A model generated the notes under the pieces. The model was not told where the DNA came from. It ran no database searches and worked only from the letters and a program-made list of their open reading frames with translations. A stretch of DNA of 64,000 bases from an uncultured virus (IMG/VR IMGVR_UViG_3300030328_001585) (Duplodnaviria > Heunggongvirae > Uroviricota > Caudoviricetes), in IMG/VR virus record IMGVR_UViG_3300030328_001585; one strand, given 5' to 3'. The position numbers were made by a program, and so were the translations under genes. Positions 19,944 through 57,288 of this stretch are shown piece after piece (the stretch's first letter is position 1; each line of letters opens with the position of its first letter).

Positions 19944-22133
19944 TTATTTATAATTCTTAAAACCAGATCTCTTAATGTTTCTTGTAGAGTTGCGTTTTCC
20001 ACGTCCAATATTTTTGAACGGACTATACTTTAATTTATACAAATTTTCTGTATTTACCAAAGATTTAGCCTCTGATTCACGTCTTTTAGAGTATCCTCTA
20101 TTAGATTGTTGTATTTTTACAAAAGCAATCAATGCACCAAACGCAACTAACCTATCCACGTTAAGGCCAGGATAATAGGCTAACATTTCTTTTAAAAGCA
20201 TAGGATCTGGAATTCTTTCTACACCTAATGTTTGTGACATTACATTTCCACTATCATCTAAATCTTCATTAATTACTTCTCTAATAAATTCTATAGCATA
20301 AGAAATTAAATGACTCTTAAATAATGTTCCTGTATTTTTCCAACCATATTCTTGATAAACTGTTCTATTAGATCCTAAATCTTTTAGAAATAATATTTGT
20401 TGTTTAGGTACTAAAAATCTTTGTTTTTTTCTAGCAATCATATGTTGAATAAACAAAGAAATATTATTCTCTACTAATGTCCAAGCATTGTACCATTCTA
20501 TCAATAATTCTAATCTTTCATGAGTTTTATTAATATCATCAAATCTACCACACCATGCTGCTACAATCTTATCCTTCTCAATAAACTGTTCTGTATCTCC
20601 TGCTTCAGTGGTTCTGGTTACTTCCACTGCATTCTTATATACAAAGATACTACATAATGAATCTGATGTTGTAGTTTTTCCTTCTGACACAGGGTCAATA
20701 GATGCATAGTATGCACCAAACTCAGGACGTTTAGATGCAGGTCTTTCCCATACAACTATACTTCCTGTTTTATCATGTTGTTTTTTATCTACTGGGAATT
20801 TTGAAATAGGTAACTTAGAAGTTCTTTTAGCTATAATTCCTTCTTGGTCTCTATCTAATTCTATCAGTTCATAGGAGTATTCTTTCTCTTCAACTTTTTT
20901 AAGTTGCTTTGTAAGTATGCCTTGTGGAAAAATTGATGCTTTTCTATATGCAAAAGCTTCAGCAATATTTAATGGCTTTTGTGATATTCTTAATTGAAAT
21001 TGTTCTCCATTTAGTTCATTCTTCCAACGTTCTCTTTCAAGATGTATAGCTTTAATAGCTTCTTCAATTTGTGAGTTTCCATATTGATCAATGTATGGTG
21101 GCATAGACCATTGCTCAGGTATAAATAAACCAGCCATACCTATTGTTCCGTCAGCATCTATTAGATCAGTTTCTACTGCATAAATATCATTTGATTCAGG
21201 ACTCATGATCATATCCTTTAATGGTTTACATTGATCTAAATCACCCACTGATCCTGCAGCAATAAACATTCCTGTAGTCATCATTCCAGATGACATAGCA
21301 GGACGGAGATATTCATAAGTTTCTAACATTTTAGGAGCAATACCGGCCTCTTCATGAAAGAAGTATGTACATGGTCCACCAACTCCTGTTGTTGCATTTT
21401 TTTCAAAAGATCCTCCTTGTATTTTAGACTTAAGACCTCTAGCAGTTTTTCTATTACCAACTTTAACCTCTATTTGTTGTTGCCATAATAAAACCTTTTC
21501 AGGATTACTAGGTCTATACCATGCAGTATGTTCATTTAAAAATATTTTATATTCTTCTAAAAACTTCCAAGATCCTTTATCATTTATAAAGTCTTTTAAA
21601 GAAGCACCTATCTTACATGTACTACCTTCTTCAAACCAATAAGTATTAATAATTTTTCCCATATGAAAATATGAGGAAGCAATCTGACGTTTTTTAAGTA
21701 TAGCTGCATGTTGATTATTTAATTCTGCTAACCATTCATATAATGCCATATGATATTGAGCATCTCTAACTTTAGCAAAACCATACTTCTTCTCTTCTTT
21801 ATCAAATATAGGTAAGAAATTTAACCACATGTAATAATCTCTAGTAATATACCAAGTTTTATCTCCCTCTTTATATATTACTCCATTTCTACATTTAACT
21901 TTTTGGTCATCCCAATAAGCAGTAAAGTCCTTAGATCTAAAAGGACTATTGCAGTATACACCATCTGTATTAAATCTAGTGGCTTCTTCATTAAATTTAA
22001 AAGCCATCTCAGTGAATCCATATTTACCTGGTTCACTAAAGATGGACTCAATAAACTCTCTAAATTCTAAGTCATCTTTAAATTCAGTAGTTGTCCATGT
22101 ATCATTGTCATATGTAGGTATAACCCTACTCAT
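19944..22133 (-). CDS. terL: Terminase large subunit
   Basis: Walker A-like LKKRQIASSY, Walker B FFHEEAG, RNase H-like 'ASIDPV' and C-terminal 'NVDRLVA'. Confidence 0.9.
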   Translation of the reverse strand: MSRVIPTYDNDTWTTTEFKDDLEFREFIESIFSEPGKYGFTEMAFKFNEEATRFNTDGVYCNSPFRSKDFTAYWDDQKVKCRNGVIYKEGDKTWYITRDYYMWLNFLPIFDKEEKKYGFAKVRDAQYHMALYEWLAELNNQHAAILKKRQIASSYFHMGKIINTYWFEEGSTCKIGASLKDFINDKGSWKFLEEYKIFLNEHTAWYRPSNPEKVLLWQQQIEVKVGNRKTARGLKSKIQGGSFEKNATTGVGGPCTYFFHEEAGIAPKMLETYEYLRPAMSSGMMTTGMFIAAGSVGDLDQCKPLKDMIMSPESNDIYAVETDLIDADGTIGMAGLFIPEQWSMPPYIDQYGNSQIEEAIKAIHLERERWKNELNGEQFQLRISQKPLNIAEAFAYRKASIFPQGILTKQLKKVEEKEYSYELIELDRDQEGIIAKRTSKLPISKFPVDKKQHDKTGSIVVWERPASKRPEFGAYYASIDPVSEGKTTTSDSLCSIFVYKNAVEVTRTTEAGDTEQFIEKDKIVAAWCGRFDDINKTHERLELLIEWYNAWTLVENNISLFIQHMIARKKQRFLVPKQQILFLKDLGSNRTVYQEYGWKNTGTLFKSHLISYAIEFIREVINEDLDDSGNVMSQTLGVERIPDPMLLKEMLAYYPGLNVDRLVAFGALIAFVKIQQSNRGYSKRRESEAKSLVNTENLYKLKYSPFKNIGRGKRNSTRNIKRSGFKNYK

Positions 22134-22401
22134 CCCTTAGTATTGCAAATACATCACCTGATTGTACTAAAAGATGTTCTTCACCTTCATGCTCCATAGG
22201 AGTTGGCATAGCATAATCAGCATATTGAACTATATCACCTATTTTAATTTCTTTAACTTCTGCTCCAACACCTACTACTGTTCCTTTATATTCTTTCTTT
22301 TGAGCTATCTCAGGAATAATAATTCCTGATGCAGTTTTAGTTGCAACTTTCCATTTCTTTAATAGTAGTTTCTTACCTACTGGTATTACTTTTATACTCA
22401 T
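22126..22401 (-). CDS. groES: Co-chaperonin GroES (Cpn10)
   Basis: KTASGIIIP mobile loop, GTVVGVG and IKIGDIV; 91 aa. Confidence 0.9.
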   Translation of the reverse strand: MSIKVIPVGKKLLLKKWKVATKTASGIIIPEIAQKKEYKGTVVGVGAEVKEIKIGDIVQYADYAMPTPMEHEGEEHLLVQSGDVFAILRDE

Positions 22402-22939: not shown

Positions 22940-23181
22940 GCTATCTGTTTTTTAAATTTTTTATAAGCTATTTGTAGTACTATAGGTTTTTCTGCTCCTT
23001 TCATTAGTACTTCAGTATAATCATCTTGAAATGCTTCTCTTCCTGGATGGAAGTATTGTTTAAAATATGCTATATCATCAAGATCAATAGTTACCAGTGT
23101 CATATAAAACTGAAAATCAGTTGGTATCTTTGATGTCTTAGACTGGATTGGTACTGCGGCTGTAAATTCTTTTAATTTCAT
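22936..23181 (-). CDS. Hypothetical protein
   Basis: 81-aa ORF with 4-bp overlaps on both sides. Confidence 0.7.
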   Translation of the reverse strand: MKLKEFTAAVPIQSKTSKIPTDFQFYMTLVTIDLDDIAYFKQYFHPGREAFQDDYTEVLMKGAEKPIVLQIAYKKFKKQIA

Positions 23182-23990
23182 TGGTTATCTTTTATCCACA
23201 TCATCAAAGATCTTACTTCATCTTTTAGATATGGGAGTTCATACATTTTTATTTCTTCTAATACGGGTTCTCCATCTATGTGTTCATTGATAGGATATCC
23301 GTTCTTATCTGTTCCTACTTGTTTAAATTTAACATGTTGGATACTTAATTTACCTATCTTCAGTTTAGGGTTATGCTTTTTAATAATATACGCATAAATA
23401 CTGAGTTGTAAATTATAATGATTCAAATTACAATCATCTAAGTGATTTACTGGTCTAAACATTTTGTTAGTTATACCTTCCCAATTAGTAAATCCTTTTT
23501 CTTTTATTTCTTTATTAGTTTTATAATCTGTAATATTTATATGACCATTTACTACTTCCACTAAATCAGCTTGACCACATATCCCCACAGATTTTAAATA
23601 AACTAAATGTTCAGGATAAACTCCTTCTTGAAGTTTTTGTGTAGGTGCAATCTTTAATCCATTTTCATCTACTATTGGTTTTATTATAGGTACTTCAGTT
23701 CCATGTCTTTGTATTGTATTAAATTCCATCATATCAGCTTCTCTTTGATTATGATAAAAATTTCCTAATGTAATTGCTCTTTGTGTTTCACCATCCCATG
23801 CAGCAATAATTTCTTTAGGAGTCATTCCATACCATTTGGATCTTTTGTTTTTTGAGGATTTAACAGCTTGTCCATCTCTGTCAAATTTTGGTTTGAATTT
23901 AGCTACAAGTCCTGTAACACTTACCCATGATATTTTATCCTGGTCATTGCTCTCATAGACATGTCCTTTCTCTTTAAATACTACTGCCAT
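23178..23990 (-). CDS. PD-(D/E)XK nuclease
   Basis: 'EHLVY...GQADLV...ITDYKT...YNLQLSIY' motifs. Confidence 0.85.
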   Translation of the reverse strand: MAVVFKEKGHVYESNDQDKISWVSVTGLVAKFKPKFDRDGQAVKSSKNKRSKWYGMTPKEIIAAWDGETQRAITLGNFYHNQREADMMEFNTIQRHGTEVPIIKPIVDENGLKIAPTQKLQEGVYPEHLVYLKSVGICGQADLVEVVNGHINITDYKTNKEIKEKGFTNWEGITNKMFRPVNHLDDCNLNHYNLQLSIYAYIIKKHNPKLKIGKLSIQHVKFKQVGTDKNGYPINEHIDGEPVLEEIKMYELPYLKDEVRSLMMWIKDNQ

Positions 23991-25120: not shown

Positions 25121-26041
25121 TTATAAACTCATTATCATATCTACCAAATCAGGATGAGGATAACAATCTGACTTATCCTTTCTTACATTGGTATGGGTTA
25201 ATAGGCCTTCTACTTTACCATAGAAAGCATTTTCTTGAAATTCAAATCCTTTTTGTGGTCCATATTTTTGAATGAATTGTTTTAATCCTAATCTTATATC
25301 TATTCCATCTCTTTCACCTATATATCTGATCCACTTTTCTGTTTCTTTAATTTGTTTTTCAGTATATGCATGCCAATACAACTTACCTTTAAAGGCTTCA
25401 GGAAGTTCACATACTTGATCTGGATGACATTGAGATCTTACATATGTTTTATGATCATTATCTAAATAACCCATATTACATATTTCTAATCCTACAGAAT
25501 GTCTATTCATAAATCCTGATCCTGTTTTTCCTAAATGCCATCCTTGAGCTCCTTCTGGAAAAGCTTGAACCATAACTCCATCATATTCATCATTACCATT
25601 CCTATGATTTTGTCCACCTAATACAAATTCAGTGGCTATTCTTCCTCTAGTATCTCTTCCCCACATATCTATACAAGCATATGGGTTTGCATTTCCTGCA
25701 GTATGATGTAAGAAAATATATCTATTTTCAACTGGTCCATCAATATATTCTCCTTTAGGTAAAAAGTGTTTATGAATTATTTGATCATAATTAGTTGTAA
25801 AGTATTGACTAGATAAATCATTATCTTCATCTATAGTATCCATATGACTAGTTCCAACTTGCAATAGTAAGGTCCAAGTATCTGAACCTACTATTCCATC
25901 AGCTGTTAAACCATTAGTTAATTGAAATCTAATTACGTGTTTTTCTGTAACTGGTCCAAAATGCCCATCTGCTCTTAATCCTAATTTTTGTTGTAACTTT
26001 TGAACTTCACTATTCTTATCACCTTTTTTAAGCATTCTCAT
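25121..26041 (-). CDS. Endolysin: peptidoglycan-binding domain plus N-acetylmuramoyl-L-alanine amidase (Amidase_2)
   Basis: DGHFGPVTE...FQ...GLTADGIVG..TW binding domain; LHHTAG, SVGLEIC and THTNV..KSDC zinc-amidase motifs. Confidence 0.9.
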   Translation of the reverse strand: MRMLKKGDKNSEVQKLQQKLGLRADGHFGPVTEKHVIRFQLTNGLTADGIVGSDTWTLLLQVGTSHMDTIDEDNDLSSQYFTTNYDQIIHKHFLPKGEYIDGPVENRYIFLHHTAGNANPYACIDMWGRDTRGRIATEFVLGGQNHRNGNDEYDGVMVQAFPEGAQGWHLGKTGSGFMNRHSVGLEICNMGYLDNDHKTYVRSQCHPDQVCELPEAFKGKLYWHAYTEKQIKETEKWIRYIGERDGIDIRLGLKQFIQKYGPQKGFEFQENAFYGKVEGLLTHTNVRKDKSDCYPHPDLVDMIMSL

Positions 26042-27843: not shown

Positions 27844-28173
27844 ATGGCTTACTTACACAAAATCAATCAAGGAGTGCGTGCAGACGGTACCACTTACAAA
27901 ACAATCATTGTATCAGACAAACCATCAGGTTCTTCTGCAATTACAATTGGTTCTCAAACAGTTCAAATGGGAAACAATGCTAATGCAAGGTATGGTATCT
28001 ATAGCCCAAAGACTGAAGATAACAAACCAATGAATGCTGATAATCCTTTTTGGGATACTTTTGAAAAAGAGTTCAAACCAGGAGATGAGATACCTGCGTT
28101 AGTAGTTGGAGATACTAACTTCACATTTAGTGACGGTACTGTGAGTGATAACTTATTCTACTGCAAAGCGTAG
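27844..28173 (+). CDS. First gene of the rightward (early) arm, hypothetical
   Basis: ATG at 27844 after an A-rich leader (MAYLHKINQG...); followed by a terminator. Confidence 0.75.
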   Translation: MAYLHKINQGVRADGTTYKTIIVSDKPSGSSAITIGSQTVQMGNNANARYGIYSPKTEDNKPMNADNPFWDTFEKEFKPGDEIPALVVGDTNFTFSDGTVSDNLFYCKA

Positions 28174-28182
28174 ATTAAGAAC

Positions 28183-28212
28183 AGAGAGAAGGGTGCAATG
28201 CCCTTCTTCTCT
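28183..28212 (+). terminator. Intrinsic terminator
   Basis: AGAGAGAAGGG-TGCAATG-CCCTTCTTCTCT followed by a pyrimidine tract. Confidence 0.7.
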
Positions 28213-28651
28213 TTCCTTTCTTTAACATAAGGTATACTTTCCCAACCGGATTGTATAGCTTCTCACTCTTTTCTCTCTTTCTTCCTACTATTTGCTCCCA
28301 ATCTTATAATTGTGGTCCAAACTCAAGGAAAAAAAAGAAAAATGTATTTAAATGTGTGTGTCATTTAATATATGTGGCCTCAATACCCACTAATTACCAC
28401 CTTTTACCACACAATAATATTCACAGCTACTTATAATATAAACATAGCTAACACTGCTATAACTAAGAGTAGACACTCACAAGCAAAAGTATGGTACACA
28501 TACAACTTGAGTTATAGTGGTCTAGCTTGTTTCTTCTATAGGATAAGCATAGTACCCGGAATATTAAAAGAATATAGAAAGGCTGTACATATAGTCAAGT
28601 AATATTGGCAACAGCGTATACCTGAGCAAGTAGACAAACTGCTTAAAATAT

Positions 28652-28744
28652 CTATAATAACTTAAAACCGCTAGCACAAATGCCACTGTTGATAAGGCAT
28701 GAGGTTAGTGTCAACCATATGGTTTGAAGCCCTTGTTATTATAG
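28652..28744 (+). ncRNA. Candidate structured RNA (nested stems plus pseudoknot)
   Basis: Pairings 28652-61/28735-44, 28665-70/28720-25, 28671-75/28704-08 and 28680-84/28696-700; loop 28688-94 is complementary to 28709-15. Confidence 0.5.
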
Positions 28745-28775
28745 TATAATTAATAACCACTTAACCTTTAAACAA

Positions 28776-29060
28776 ATGAAAATAACTTTTATAAAGCCTG
28801 AGCTATTCGTTCAGCACAACAGGAACATAGGTATCGTACTCTTCTCAAGAGAACAAGACCAACATGTTAACTTCTTTACAGGAGATATGGAACATAAGCG
28901 TGTCAATCGTAATGAATTAGGCTCACCAAGTATGAATTACTTAGAAGCAGAGCTATTAACTAATGAGTCATTAAGACTCTTAGCCGTAGATAATAATATA
29001 ATAACCCTTAACTATCAACAGAGTCTAGACTTCTTAGAGTATGCTGTTAGTTATAATTAA
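28776..29060 (+). CDS. Hypothetical protein
   Basis: 94-aa ORF with an A-rich leader. Confidence 0.7.
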   Translation: MKITFIKPELFVQHNRNIGIVLFSREQDQHVNFFTGDMEHKRVNRNELGSPSMNYLEAELLTNESLRLLAVDNNIITLNYQQSLDFLEYAVSYN

Positions 29061-53631: not shown

Positions 53632-56600
53632 TTATTGATAAATTGTAACTGCTACAGTAAAGCTTGTTGATCCTGTTACTACTGTATTAGTTGCTTTAAT
53701 TACTTCTAATAGAAACCCTGTAGTAGTCATAGCTCTTGTTCTACACTGCATCATGTCTTGACCCGCATTGTTAAATATTGTTGTTTGAGGTATATAATTA
53801 GCATTTGGTCGTGTTGTAGCAAATGTAATAGTATATAATCCAGTACCTGAAGCATAACTTACTGCATGTTCTGGACTTCCTGCATAAATTGAATCCCCTT
53901 GGTTAACTATACCTGAATCATTGAAAGAAAAGTAATCAGCTGGACCTGGATCTTGAGCTACTAAGTTTTTAACTTCTGTATACTTAACTGTATTAGAATC
54001 ACTTACATCTTGGAAAATAACTAAATCACTACCGTCTGGTGAAACACCTGATGCACTAGTAGCAGATTGAATTATAGAATCTGTTCCTACATAGTCTACA
54101 GCTATATCATTTGCATTAGCTTGTAAACCTGCTCCCGCTCCTACATTAAGTGTTAATGATCCCGTAGTTCCACCACCTGCTTCTGAACATCCAGTTCCTG
54201 CAGTTAAAGCTGTTACTATAGGTAGTGCACTAATTGCACTTTTCTTAACTGCATTACTATCACTCACATCATTGAATAATATTTGGTCAGCAGGATCTGC
54301 TGAACCAGCTCCTGGAACTAAAATTATATTATCTGCTCCAGTATAATCTACTCCTATAGTAGGATTAACTGTAGCTGAACCAGCTTCAAGTTCTAGACCT
54401 TCACCTGCAGTTACAGATGTAACTGTACCAGCTGGTGCTGCTGAACCTGGAGTAATTGCTGTAATATGTCCTGATGCATTATATGTTATAGATGCAGGGT
54501 AAGCTGCAGTACCTGCTGTAATAGAAGCACTATGATTTATAGTTACAGTATTTACTTTAGGATTACTACCCGCAGTAGTTGCTACACTAGTTAAACCAGT
54601 TCCTCCTGCAATTACTACTTCTGAATCTGATGGAGTTGATAAACCAGAACCTGAGCTTAAATTATCCCCTCTTGTCCAGAAACCAGCATAATATCCTGGC
54701 ATTAAATAAATTTGTTGTTTCTTAAGTGTATTACCATCAGAGGTATCACTAAACATATAATAATCAAGAGTATTTGGATTTGACTCAGTAGCTCTTGCCA
54801 TTATAAGGTTATCAGTACCTGCAATATCTACACCAATTGTAATAGTATCTGTGGTTGAAGTGTTTACTGTTAGACCACCAAACGTTGAAGCTTGATTTGC
54901 AGCAGCAACTGTAAGGGTACCACCTAAATTAATAGTTTGTGGGGTACTTCCATCACTTACAATAAAGCTACCAGCAGCAAAGAAGTTAGTAAGAGTATTC
55001 TTTTTAATAGTATCACTATCACTTGCATCATTAAACCAAATAGAATCTGCATCTGTTGGAACCGCAGTAGCTGCTTCTAGTATAGCATTATCTGCACCAG
55101 CGTAATCTACATTAACAATTGGACTACTTGCTGTACCTGTTACAGTAATACCTGTTCCTGCATTAACAGTGGTACTACCACCACCTCCGGCTGGAACTTG
55201 CCATGTACCATCAGCTCTTAAGAATGTAGTTGATTGAGCAGATCCTGATGAATCTGGAACATATCCTACTACATTACCACCACCAAATTTATTCATACTA
55301 AGGTTAAGATTACTTCCTGAAATGCTTCCTGCAAAAGGTGTAGTTTGACCTGTAGTTAAAGATAAATTTAATGTAGTTAAATTGTTAAATGGTAAGTTAG
55401 ATATTGATGCTTTTCTTATAGTATTACTATCACTTATATCAGAGAAAACAATATAATCAGAAGCAGCTGGAGTAGCTCCAACATTTACTTCTATATAGTT
55501 ATCAGTTCCTACAGTATCTAAACTTATAGTAACTGGATTAGGGCTAGCACTAGCTGCAGTTACATTTAATCCAGCATCCCCTACAAAGTTTATTGTTTCC
55601 CCACTACTTATAGTTACCGCTGAGCCACCGTCTCCTTTAATATCAAAACCACTAAATCCTCCTGCACCAACAATAGATGCTATAGTTGCACGCTTAACAG
55701 TATTATCTGAAAGATCATTGAATATCATTGTATCATCAGCAGCAACTGGTGTTGCAATAGATGTCTCTAATATCATATTATCTGCTCCTGCGTAGTCTAC
55801 TGCTACTGTAGCTGTAGGTCCTGTTCCGTTTGTTACTGTTATACCTGGACCTTCTTGTATAGTAGATATTGTACCCGCTCCTGCAGCAATCCAGTTAGTA
55901 CCAGATCCTGTAGAACTTAATATTTGTCCCGCTGAACCAATATCATTACTACTATCATAAATTCCTCCAGTTACTCTAACATCTCCAGTAACATGTAATT
56001 CTTGTGATGGTGCAGTATTCATGTTGATACCTACTTTTCCATCTTGTATATTTATAGCAGTCGTAGTTGTTCCTAGGTGATGTTGTATGAAACGCATTGC
56101 TGATGCTCCTTGAGATGTATCAGATGTTCCATATGTTGAAATTTCATTTTTAAAAAGTGTGCTACCTAAACCGTCATGAAAACGTAGTGTATTAGTCATA
56201 CTACCTACATCATTTACAGAAGATTTCATTATCATTGCTGTAGCTGCATCTGCTGGATTTTGTAGATGTAATGAAAGACCACTTGAACTTGTTGGAGCAG
56301 CTCCTATTGCTAAACAGTCATCTGAATTATGCCAGTATAGTCTTGAATCACTTGATAGTGAGCTGGTAGAATCCCAGAATGCAACTCTTGTTGCTACACC
56401 ACTACCTGTTACAACGTTCATACTAGATACTAAGTCTGCAACTTGCACTCTTTTATTTTGAGTAGCAGAAGAATCATATATAAGTAGTTCATCTGCACCT
56501 TGTACAGCTGCTCCTAGATCTACCAAAGAATGTACTGTAACACCAACTGCTATAGTACTTCCTGTAGAAACTACATTTCCTCCAAGCAAATTATTAGTAG

Positions 56601-57288
56601 CAGAAGCCTGTATACTTTGATAAGCTACAGTTGTACCGTTAGATACAATTAGTTGACCCGCAGTTCCTGGAGGTGTGGCTGTTTGTATATTACTAGAATT
56701 ACCAACCCAAATATTACCATATGCAAGAGTTACAACCGGATCATCATCTGACCATAGTACTCTACCATCTGCTCTAGACCTTAATACTCTATTAGCAGCA
56801 CCTGCAGCTGCTCCTGTAGAGTCATGAACTACATTTAAAAGTGCTGTAAACTTAGTAGTATCACCTGAAGTACCTAGGGTATTGTTTAATTTTAATACAC
56901 TATTCTTGTCAACCTCTAAATTTTCATCAACGTTTAAGTTTCCATTAACTATAATTGAATCAGCAACAGCATTTTGAATCATAATACTATCCTTTATAGA
57001 TGTATTTAAAGTTGCACATACACCAGAAGGATCTGTGTACATAGGAATTCTATACTTAGTTGCTGTAGTATCAGGGTCTTGTACTATTACCCCAAATAAT
57101 AAATCACATCTTAGGTCTCCCCATTTAATGATAAAAGGTTCTCCTTTGGGATTATAGGCGGCCCCAGTATTTAGAAAACTATTAGAATAGATTTTAGCAA
57201 ATTCAAACCAGTCTCTTTTTTTATCAAGCTTAGTTTGTTTTTTGCTTCTTTTTAGTAGGCCTAATACCTCTTGTAAGTAAATACTCAT
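53632..57288 (-). CDS. Long fibre protein (1,218 aa) with internal repeats
   Basis: About six copies of 'VDYxGxDNxI...D...FxDxSD...K'; KVGIN..P...LHV.G and FLRADGTW motifs. Confidence 0.85.
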   Translation of the reverse strand: MSIYLQEVLGLLKRSKKQTKLDKKRDWFEFAKIYSNSFLNTGAAYNPKGEPFIIKWGDLRCDLLFGVIVQDPDTTATKYRIPMYTDPSGVCATLNTSIKDSIMIQNAVADSIIVNGNLNVDENLEVDKNSVLKLNNTLGTSGDTTKFTALLNVVHDSTGAAAGAANRVLRSRADGRVLWSDDDPVVTLAYGNIWVGNSSNIQTATPPGTAGQLIVSNGTTVAYQSIQASATNNLLGGNVVSTGSTIAVGVTVHSLVDLGAAVQGADELLIYDSSATQNKRVQVADLVSSMNVVTGSGVATRVAFWDSTSSLSSDSRLYWHNSDDCLAIGAAPTSSSGLSLHLQNPADAATAMIMKSSVNDVGSMTNTLRFHDGLGSTLFKNEISTYGTSDTSQGASAMRFIQHHLGTTTTAINIQDGKVGINMNTAPSQELHVTGDVRVTGGIYDSSNDIGSAGQILSSTGSGTNWIAAGAGTISTIQEGPGITVTNGTGPTATVAVDYAGADNMILETSIATPVAADDTMIFNDLSDNTVKRATIASIVGAGGFSGFDIKGDGGSAVTISSGETINFVGDAGLNVTAASASPNPVTISLDTVGTDNYIEVNVGATPAASDYIVFSDISDSNTIRKASISNLPFNNLTTLNLSLTTGQTTPFAGSISGSNLNLSMNKFGGGNVVGYVPDSSGSAQSTTFLRADGTWQVPAGGGGSTTVNAGTGITVTGTASSPIVNVDYAGADNAILEAATAVPTDADSIWFNDASDSDTIKKNTLTNFFAAGSFIVSDGSTPQTINLGGTLTVAAANQASTFGGLTVNTSTTDTITIGVDIAGTDNLIMARATESNPNTLDYYMFSDTSDGNTLKKQQIYLMPGYYAGFWTRGDNLSSGSGLSTPSDSEVVIAGGTGLTSVATTAGSNPKVNTVTINHSASITAGTAAYPASITYNASGHITAITPGSAAPAGTVTSVTAGEGLELEAGSATVNPTIGVDYTGADNIILVPGAGSADPADQILFNDVSDSNAVKKSAISALPIVTALTAGTGCSEAGGGTTGSLTLNVGAGAGLQANANDIAVDYVGTDSIIQSATSASGVSPDGSDLVIFQDVSDSNTVKYTEVKNLVAQDPGPADYFSFNDSGIVNQGDSIYAGSPEHAVSYASGTGLYTITFATTRPNANYIPQTTIFNNAGQDMMQCRTRAMTTTGFLLEVIKATNTVVTGSTSFTVAVTIYQ

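What the first reader, a model, noticed from the sequence alone, without database searches (positions are those of the whole stretch)
28652..28744. Candidate pseudoknotted RNA in the leader of the early operon
Seen: four nested helices (CTATAATAAC/GTTATTATAG perfect 10 bp; AAACCG/TGGTTT; CTAGC/GTTAG; ATGCC/GGCAT), and the apical loop GTTGATA can pair with TGTCAAC (28709-15) to form a pseudoknot. G-U pairs favour the plus-strand transcript. Upstream TGGCAACAG (28606-14) can pair alternatively with TGCCA or CTGTTG, which would allow a conformational switch. The element ends about 30 nt before ATG 28776. Inference: a riboswitch-like element, ribozyme or nuclease-resistant RNA that I cannot assign to a named family.
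Basis: partly seen in the sequence, partly recalled or inferred. Interest (0 to 1): 0.7.

Follow-up and report, generated by a model that had tools for sequence, protein, structure and literature searches.

The report
Swappable folded RNA module, marine phage
The flagged stretch is a real, uncatalogued folded-RNA module that crAss-like marine phages gain, lose and trade among their early genes; it is not a riboswitch for the next gene, its pseudoknot is unproven, and its job is untested.

Summary
The helices and the loop complementarity are in the sequence, and the plus strand folds better than shuffles (z -2.9). The element (B) lies in a 187-nt insert that a near-identical phage lacks. A distant crAss-like phage (terminase 31% identical) carries the same cassette before an unrelated gene. 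Its outer parts are almost identical, but its inner hairpin is wholly replaced and still paired, with the same loop ends. So B is a real, mobile structured-RNA module. It matches no Rfam family.

Energy favours a three-way junction, and the diverged copy offers only a 5-bp, chance-level version of the knot. The proposed switch with upstream TGGCAACAG fails. There is no expression platform.

B travels with two other modules, one a very widespread 25-nt pseudoknot with perfect covariation. Related phages fill the same slot with other non-coding inserts or with nothing.

Best reading: a gene-like early small RNA acting on a host factor (0.35), ahead of a cis stability element (0.25). No transcription or function data exist.

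The parts
28565..28751 (+). Optional 187-nt non-coding cassette (modules U + A + B); replaced by 6 nt in near-identical phage L001
28576..28745 (+). Stretch shared with the distant phage record G052 (locus L353): U+A differ at 2 of 71 nt, the 5' outer part of B at 0 of 18, the 3' outer part at 2 of 31; inner hairpin replaced
28652..28744 (+). Module B, the finding: stem-closed structured RNA; three alleles seen (window; L002 = L351 = run X9; L353)
28652..28661 (+). B closing helix P0, 5' arm (pairs with 28735-28744); identical in all alleles, so no covariation
28669..28710 (+). B variable inner hairpin (P2, internal loop, P3, apical loop); sequence replaced in L353, pairing kept, loop ends C-ACU and UAA-G kept
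28688..28715 (+). Candidate pseudoknot: loop 28688-94 with strand 28709-15; unproven
28713..28724 (+).
28726..28734 (+). 3' junction strand, mostly unpaired in both folds (its first two bases may extend P4 in the junction fold); candidate binding surface (inference)
28680..28727 (+). 15-codon micro-ORF inside B; L353 has a 20-codon ORF from the same position to the same stop; start buried in P3; probably not coding
28582..28615 (+).
28619..28644 (+). Module A: 25-nt H-type mini-pseudoknot, widespread in unrelated phages, strong covariation, not in Rfam
28537..28564 (+). Motif conserved in 83 related phage loci that precedes the cassette slot; promoter-like position, role untested
28752..28775 (+). 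A-rich, mostly unpaired leader of the next gene; retained in L001 without the cassette
28776..29060 (+). Downstream 94-aa ORF, no family assigned; also present in relatives that lack B
28186..28208 (+). Terminator-like hairpin after the upstream ORF 27844-28173

Best explanation
B is a self-contained structured RNA module carried like a small gene in the early region of crAss-like marine phages. Shown: it folds better than chance, it is optional, it sits before different genes, and it has moved between distant phages with its outer frame intact and its inner hairpin exchanged. Inferred: it is transcribed with the early genes. The closing helix lets it fold independently of its neighbours. Host nucleases trim the early transcript so that a stable small RNA remains, possibly helped by the mini-pseudoknot A on its 5' side. 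That RNA acts in trans as a binding surface or decoy for a host factor during takeover or counter-defence, with the conserved junction as scaffold and the variable hairpin as the allele-specific part. Confidence that B is a real structured, mobile RNA module is about 0.85; the figure below is for the trans-acting mechanism.
For: Phage identity: crassvirus capsid family at E 1.8e-31; terminase nearest to crAss-like and Flavobacterium phages at 26-28%. Optional: L001 is 99% identical in the upstream protein and 97% in downstream DNA, yet lacks 28565-28751. Slot use: of 83 related loci, 57 have a start codon within 70 nt of the conserved motif, 24 have a longer non-coding insert (15 distinct sequences), 2 could not be scored. 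Mobile: in 19 kb of G052 the only long DNA match to the window is this cassette, its terminase is 31% identical, and it shares another 68-nt non-coding piece with L193 at 98.5%. Structure kept under sequence change: L353 B folds at z -4.1, 0 of 300 shuffles, inner hairpin alone z -3.2; model R2, built without it, scores it 46 bits, E 3e-8. A sister module family shows compensatory changes in two helices (9 distinct members). Precedent: in crAss-like phi14:2 two early intergenic regions are transcribed above most genes and stay abundant, function unknown (bioRxiv 10.1101/2020.03.07.982082, passages read).
Against: No evidence of transcription, processing or any partner. Only two structural types of B were found, so covariation is anecdotal and the near-identical outer parts may reflect recent transfer, not selection. 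Without P0 the window's B folds at only z -1.6, 22 of 300 shuffles as good. L353's minus strand also folds well (z -3.4). As whole leaders, only 2 of 15 non-coding inserts fold below z -2, against a control mean of -0.7. B ends 31 and 24 nt before a start codon in its two contexts, which fits a cis role equally well.
Confidence: 0.35

Rival explanations
1. Cis-acting processing or stability element: A and B shield the 5' end of the downstream mRNA segment from nucleases and so raise expression of whichever early gene follows.
For: B ends 24-31 nt before a start codon in both contexts. Module A lies outside any ORF of 60 aa or more in 55 of 73 usable copies, and same-strand coding follows in 56 of 73 against opposite-strand in 14. 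[quoted passage not shown]
Against: The same downstream gene does without the cassette in L001 and other relatives. A's 8-nt loop does not fit the published coremin loop rules. A simple stabiliser would not need a conserved junction and conserved loop ends.
Confidence: 0.25
2. Nearly neutral mobile cargo: stem-closed pieces are shuffled by recombination at the A-rich spacers and tolerated because they fold away from the start region; B has no selected function.
For: B is rare: model searches found only its own source record in 1 of 50 and 1 of 37 related records. The outer parts show no covariation. The slot is empty in 57 of 83 relatives.
Against: The replaced inner hairpin keeps its pairing and the same loop ends. 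The cassette crossed between phages 31% identical in terminase. The co-travelling module A is under clear structural selection: 123 of 123 copies are paired at a position the search left free.
Confidence: 0.14
3. A self-cleaving ribozyme of an undescribed class that cuts the early polycistronic transcript.
For: A multi-helix junction with invariant single strands and a variable peripheral stem is the usual anatomy. The 3' GG-loop-CC segment and the A-rich 5' junction recall the P4/L4 side of a P5-type twister (recalled, from no call). L353 gains one pair there.
Against: No Rfam ribozyme scores at E 10 or below over either allele. Twister-P5 and pistol models find nothing in G002 or G052. The conserved GC of twister L2 (PMC5408937, passages) is absent, and the twister-like stem breaks in the window and L002 alleles.
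Confidence: 0.12
4. A translated micro-ORF (15 or 20 codons) whose start is sequestered by the fold: a leader peptide or small toxin-like peptide.
For: All three alleles have ATG at position 29 open to the same TGA, and the length difference is 15 nt. ATG at that exact place with an open frame arose in 1493 of 200000 inner shuffles, with the frame fixed by the real length (noticed post hoc).
Against: Any ATG-ORF of 12 codons or more to that stop arises in 569 and 775 of 5000 shuffles. The peptides are unalike, and the changes near the stop are non-synonymous. The start is in a helix and lacks the A at -3 that favours initiation in Bacteroidetes (PMC6847099, abstract).
Confidence: 0.06
5. A riboswitch controlling the early operon.
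For: Two mutually exclusive folds are compatible with all three alleles.
Against: P0 closes both folds, so the start region does not change. No terminator follows. The downstream genes are unrelated. There is no match in 151 Bacteroidota genomes (no positive control). The proposed upstream switch fails.
Confidence: 0.05

Closest known systems
Early intergenic non-coding RNAs of Cellulophaga crAss-like phage phi14:2 (g004-g005, g005-g006; bioRxiv 10.1101/2020.03.07.982082, passages read)
   Same: crAss-like phage; non-coding stretch among the first small early genes; co-oriented with them; no known function
   Different: Those are shown to be abundant and stable, while B has no expression data. 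No DNA similarity to any INPHARED phage record at E 1 or below. The passages read describe no structure or swapping.
c-di-GMP-II riboswitch aptamer (Rfam RF01786)
   Different: No model score at E 10 or below, no canonical kink-turn, no expression platform, knot not established
Twister ribozyme, type P5 (Rfam RF02684)
   Same: Closing stem at the termini, A-rich 5' junction, and a possible small 3' hairpin with an 8-nt loop ending AAGC (resemblance recalled)
   Different: No model score; no L1 catalytic loop or L2 GC; the stem is broken in two of three alleles
Coremin / xrRNA-C of plant viruses (for module A only; PMC10520033, passages)
   Same: A short hairpin followed by a spacer ending in an AAACU-R-C tail
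   Different: 8-nt loop outside the YGAD/YGNNAD rule, loop-tail pairing that covaries, found in DNA phages; the next helix starts 8 nt (window) or about 17 nt (L353) further on

Membership tests
c-di-GMP-II riboswitch | Scores with the Rfam covariance model | tested here: not met
   No hit at E 10 or below over either allele or in records G002 and G052
c-di-GMP-II riboswitch | Kink-turn between P2 and P3 | tested here: not met
   By inspection (kink-turn rule recalled): the window internal loop and the L353 internal loop do not give a 3-nt bulge followed by tandem G-A pairs in register
c-di-GMP-II riboswitch | Pseudoknot from the apical loop to the junction | tested here: inconclusive
   7 nt, p 0.006 in the window; 5 nt, p 0.28 in L353
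Riboswitch (any) | Expression platform: terminator or start-site sequestration | tested here: not met
   No terminator after B; start region mostly unpaired; upstream switch pairs have probability 0.0
Riboswitch (any) | Consistent class of downstream gene | tested here: not met
   94-aa orphan ORF in the window, 53-aa zinc-finger-like ORF in L353; the window's gene occurs without B
Riboswitch (any) | Ligand binding | not testable with these tools
   Needs in-line probing
Twister ribozyme (P5 type) | Scores with the Rfam model | tested here: not met
Twister ribozyme (P5 type) | Stems P1, P2, P4 with pseudoknots T1 and T2 (conserved GC in L2) | tested here: not met
   Features from PMC5408937. 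The P4-like stem is paired at 2-3 of 4 positions in two alleles, there is no GC after P2, and a T1-like partner is present in the window only
Pistol, hammerhead, HDV-like, hatchet, twister-sister ribozymes | Scores with the Rfam models | tested here: not met
   All 4227 families scanned at E 10 or below over both alleles; pistol also on G002 and G052
Self-cleaving ribozyme (any class) | Site-specific self-cleavage | not testable with these tools
   Needs a cleavage assay
Coremin / xrRNA-C (module A) | First loop follows YGAD or YGNNAD | tested here: not met
   A has an 8-nt loop, fixed by the covarying outer pair; rule from PMC10520033, which also reports some longer loops that resist
Coremin / xrRNA-C (module A) | Second hairpin directly after the spacer | tested here: inconclusive
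   P0 of B begins 8 nt later in the window and about 17 nt later in L353; no helix follows in L500
Coremin / xrRNA-C (module A) | Blocks a 5'-3' exoribonuclease | not testable with these tools
   Needs an in vitro digestion assay
phi14:2-type early non-coding RNA | Intergenic, in the early region of a crAss-like phage | tested here: met
   'early' is inferred from gene order between the packaging and replication modules
phi14:2-type early non-coding RNA | Abundant, persistent transcript | not testable with these tools
   No RNA run was listed among the holders
L121-type sister module of related phages (defined here) | Detected by the other family's profile | tested here: not met
   R2 misses that family, and R3 and a profile HMM miss B. 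Pairwise scores are mixed: 1 to 245 of 1000 shuffles as high

The most novel reading that the evidence does not exclude
The swappable hairpin would tune the specificity. Compatible hints: loop and bulge lengths rise together (11/11 and 12/12 nt) and the two arms stay about equal (6+5 and about 9+9 pairs), as a fold-back needs. That CBASS of Bacteroidetes uses c-di-GMP is recalled, not from a call.
Probability: 0.04. Interest if true: 0.9.

Novelty: new member of a known kind. Interest (0 to 1): 0.42.

Why it matters
The early non-coding RNAs of crAss-like phages are among their most abundant transcripts and have no known function. B gives a small, defined test object with natural controls: a phage pair with and without the cassette, and two alleles with the same frame but different inner hairpins. 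If such modules act on host factors, they are an RNA layer of phage counter-defence that is traded between distant phages as small genes are. Module A is a separate, far better supported uncatalogued motif that can be assayed at once.

Tried and rejected
Rfam: none at gathering score in the window, in 20 and 7 related loci, and nothing credible at E 10 or below over B or its homologue or the sister module. The window's own assembly is not held, and the nearest record G001 lacks the region. INPHARED blastn gave no match or only chance words.

Pattern scans on the inner hairpin returned chance hits apart from the L002 record (112 and 23 stretches). The outer-frame pattern gave 16 viral stretches, of which 2 were B; L354/L362 looked similar but appear to be a GC-richer coding stretch read on the other strand and were dropped. 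One exact metagenome hit equals the L002 allele. Model searches: only the source records in 1 of 50 and 1 of 37 related viral records, most of them fragments, and 0 of 151 Bacteroidota genomes without a positive control.

No RNA holder was listed; this is no evidence either way. The sigma-70-like site at 28631-28658 was rejected because its spacer is 9 nt longer in L353 and its first hexamer changes in L002. No tRNA genes.

Kinship of B to the L121-type module is unproven, and a likeness of U to its 5' part was not significant (320 of 1000).

Literature: a search for module A words listed nothing relevant among 30 of 133 papers shown. Searches on crAss-like structured RNA and RNA sponges (20 of 91 listed) showed no description of B. 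The alignment and model supplements of Fremin et al. 2023 (PMC10690425) could not be read; the readable tables held none of my words or contig ids, so B or A may be among their unnamed candidates.

Full report
Setting. The window is part of a crAss-like phage: crassvirus major capsid family at E 1.8e-31, terminase and portal families, and nearest cultured or deposited terminases from crAss-like and Flavobacterium phages at 26-28% identity. All listed holders of the region are marine or seawater DNA runs, apart from one small-share vent sample. The finding lies in a 600-nt gap where the minus-strand packaging genes give way to small plus-strand ORFs followed by helicase, glycosylase and polymerase genes. 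'Early region' is an inference from that order; helicase and glycosylase are my reading of the sequences.

The observation. All helices and the loop complement are present. The plus strand folds at z -2.92 and the minus strand at z -1.09. But the minimum-energy fold is a three-way junction (-24.9 kcal/mol) in which P2 extends and a small hairpin, P4, takes the GGUU. No Rfam family matches.

It is an optional cassette. L001, 99% identical in the upstream protein and 97% in downstream DNA, lacks 28565-28751. L002, L351 and run X9 carry B with the same two changes. A motif just upstream is shared by 83 viral loci. In 57 of them a gene starts within 70 nt, in 24 a longer non-coding insert intervenes (15 distinct sequences, one being the L002 record), and 2 were unscorable. 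Many inserts are closed by an outer stem, but as whole leaders only 2 of 15 fold below z -2, so I do not claim that all are structured. One family of them is: 9 distinct members keep a 5-bp helix through two different double changes and a small hairpin through one (the P0 column of that printout was out of register and was ignored, on 5 of them, 94 of 500 shuffles did as well).

A diverged homologue. A loose end led to L353, in record G052, whose terminase is 31% identical to the window's. In 19 kb of G052 this cassette is the only long DNA match to the window. U+A differ at 2 of 71 positions and B's outer parts at 0 of 18 and 2 of 31, while the inner hairpin is new in sequence and 15 nt longer. 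It still folds (z -4.1; inner hairpin z -3.2), keeps the loop ends C-ACU and UAA-G, and is found by model R2 at E 3e-8. It stands 24 nt before an unrelated zinc-finger-like ORF in mid-operon. This is the main evidence that B is a selected structure and a mobile unit. It rests on two structural types only: further scans and model searches found no third.

Which fold. At the base of P2 the three alleles give C-G/C-G/C-G, G-U/A-U/A-U and C-G/C-G/U-A; P4 gives A-U/A-U/G-U at its base, with the variable bases in its loop. The knot has 7 complementary bases in the window (p 0.006) and 5 in L353 (p 0.28), in a different register against the conserved loop ends. In its favour, loop and bulge lengths rise together and the arms stay equal. 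If B is kin to the sister family, L353's 5-bp pairing falls in register with that family's covarying helix, but the kinship failed the profile tests. Verdict: the junction fold is better supported, the knot is possible, and a mixed fold with the knot plus P4 and without P1 is also open.

The switch and the neighbours. U+A occur without B in L494 and L500, and L353's B lacks the partner words. Among 123 distinct copies a stem pair left free by the pattern is Watson-Crick in 123 (G-C 81, C-G 25, A-U 16, U-A 1), and the loop-to-tail pair holds in 117. It is mostly intergenic and followed by same-strand coding. Ten A-bearing loci gave no Rfam hit. It resembles the plant-virus coremin motif in its tail but not in its loop.

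How it most likely works. Shown: autonomous fold, optional presence, independence of the downstream gene, transfer between distant phages, no terminator or start-site sequestration. Inferred: transcription with the early genes, trimming to a stable RNA, action in trans on a host factor (0.35). Rivals: cis stability element (0.25), neutral cargo (0.14), new ribozyme (0.12), micro-ORF (0.06), riboswitch (0.05). The precedent is phi14:2, whose early intergenic RNAs are abundant, persistent and unexplained.

Papers, and what I saw of each. Passages: bioRxiv 10.1101/2020.03.07.982082, PMC10520033, PMC5408937, PMC9495366, PMC10118264. Abstract and outline: PMC6847099. Listing, supplement list and searches of the readable tables only: PMC10690425; its alignments and models were unreadable and may hold B or A. 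Twister loop details, the kink-turn rule and the c-di-GMP-II layout are recalled. Earlier AI notes of this scan describe the same phenomenon in other genomes; they were used as leads, not as support.

Verdict. A real, uncatalogued structured RNA module: a new member of the known but unexplained kind of orphan early non-coding RNAs in crAss-like phages. Not a riboswitch for this operon. Pseudoknot and function are open. Interest 0.42.

Noticed in passing
window 28619-28644; loci L204-L327: A 25-nt mini-pseudoknot (module A) found in very many unrelated phages, usually between genes, with perfect covariation and no Rfam family; better supported than the finding itself.
   Followed up: partly
L121:3042-3120 and relatives (L129, L139, L141, L162, L163, L167, L189, L193): A 79-nt stem-closed module with compensatory changes in two helices and inserts in its small hairpin; it sits either before or after the conserved motif; no Rfam match; possible distant kin of B.
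   Followed up: partly
window 28454-28520: Another stem-closed module upstream of the conserved motif (about -25 kcal/mol for 28446-28535), replaced by other sequence in L001, L002 and run X9: a second swappable slot.
   Followed up: partly
window 28250-28564: A non-coding stretch conserved across the related phages (70-74% identity to L003-L008), ending in the motif shared by 83 loci; promoter, origin or genome end is undetermined.
   Followed up: no
L353 (minus strand, about 900 nt upstream of B) and L193: A 68-nt non-coding piece 98.5% identical between the two distant phage groups, closed by an outer stem: a second case of module transfer. L353 holds several more folded-looking spacers.
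   Followed up: no
L122, L147, L197, L203; L127; L138; L158; L183; L184, L192, L194; L143: Further distinct non-coding inserts in the same early slot; L122 and L147 look like one family with a variable inner hairpin. No Rfam hit in those scanned.
   Followed up: partly
window 28631-28658: An 11-of-12 sigma-70-like promoter match overlapping A and P0; spacing not kept in L353.
   Followed up: yes
window 22126-22401 (-), 23178-23990 (-), 25121-26041 (-): A GroES-like co-chaperonin and a nuclease-like ORF (both my reading of the sequence) and an endolysin/amidase beside the terminase.
   Followed up: no
window 53632-57288 (-): A 1218-aa ORF with no PHROG or Pfam family.
   Followed up: no
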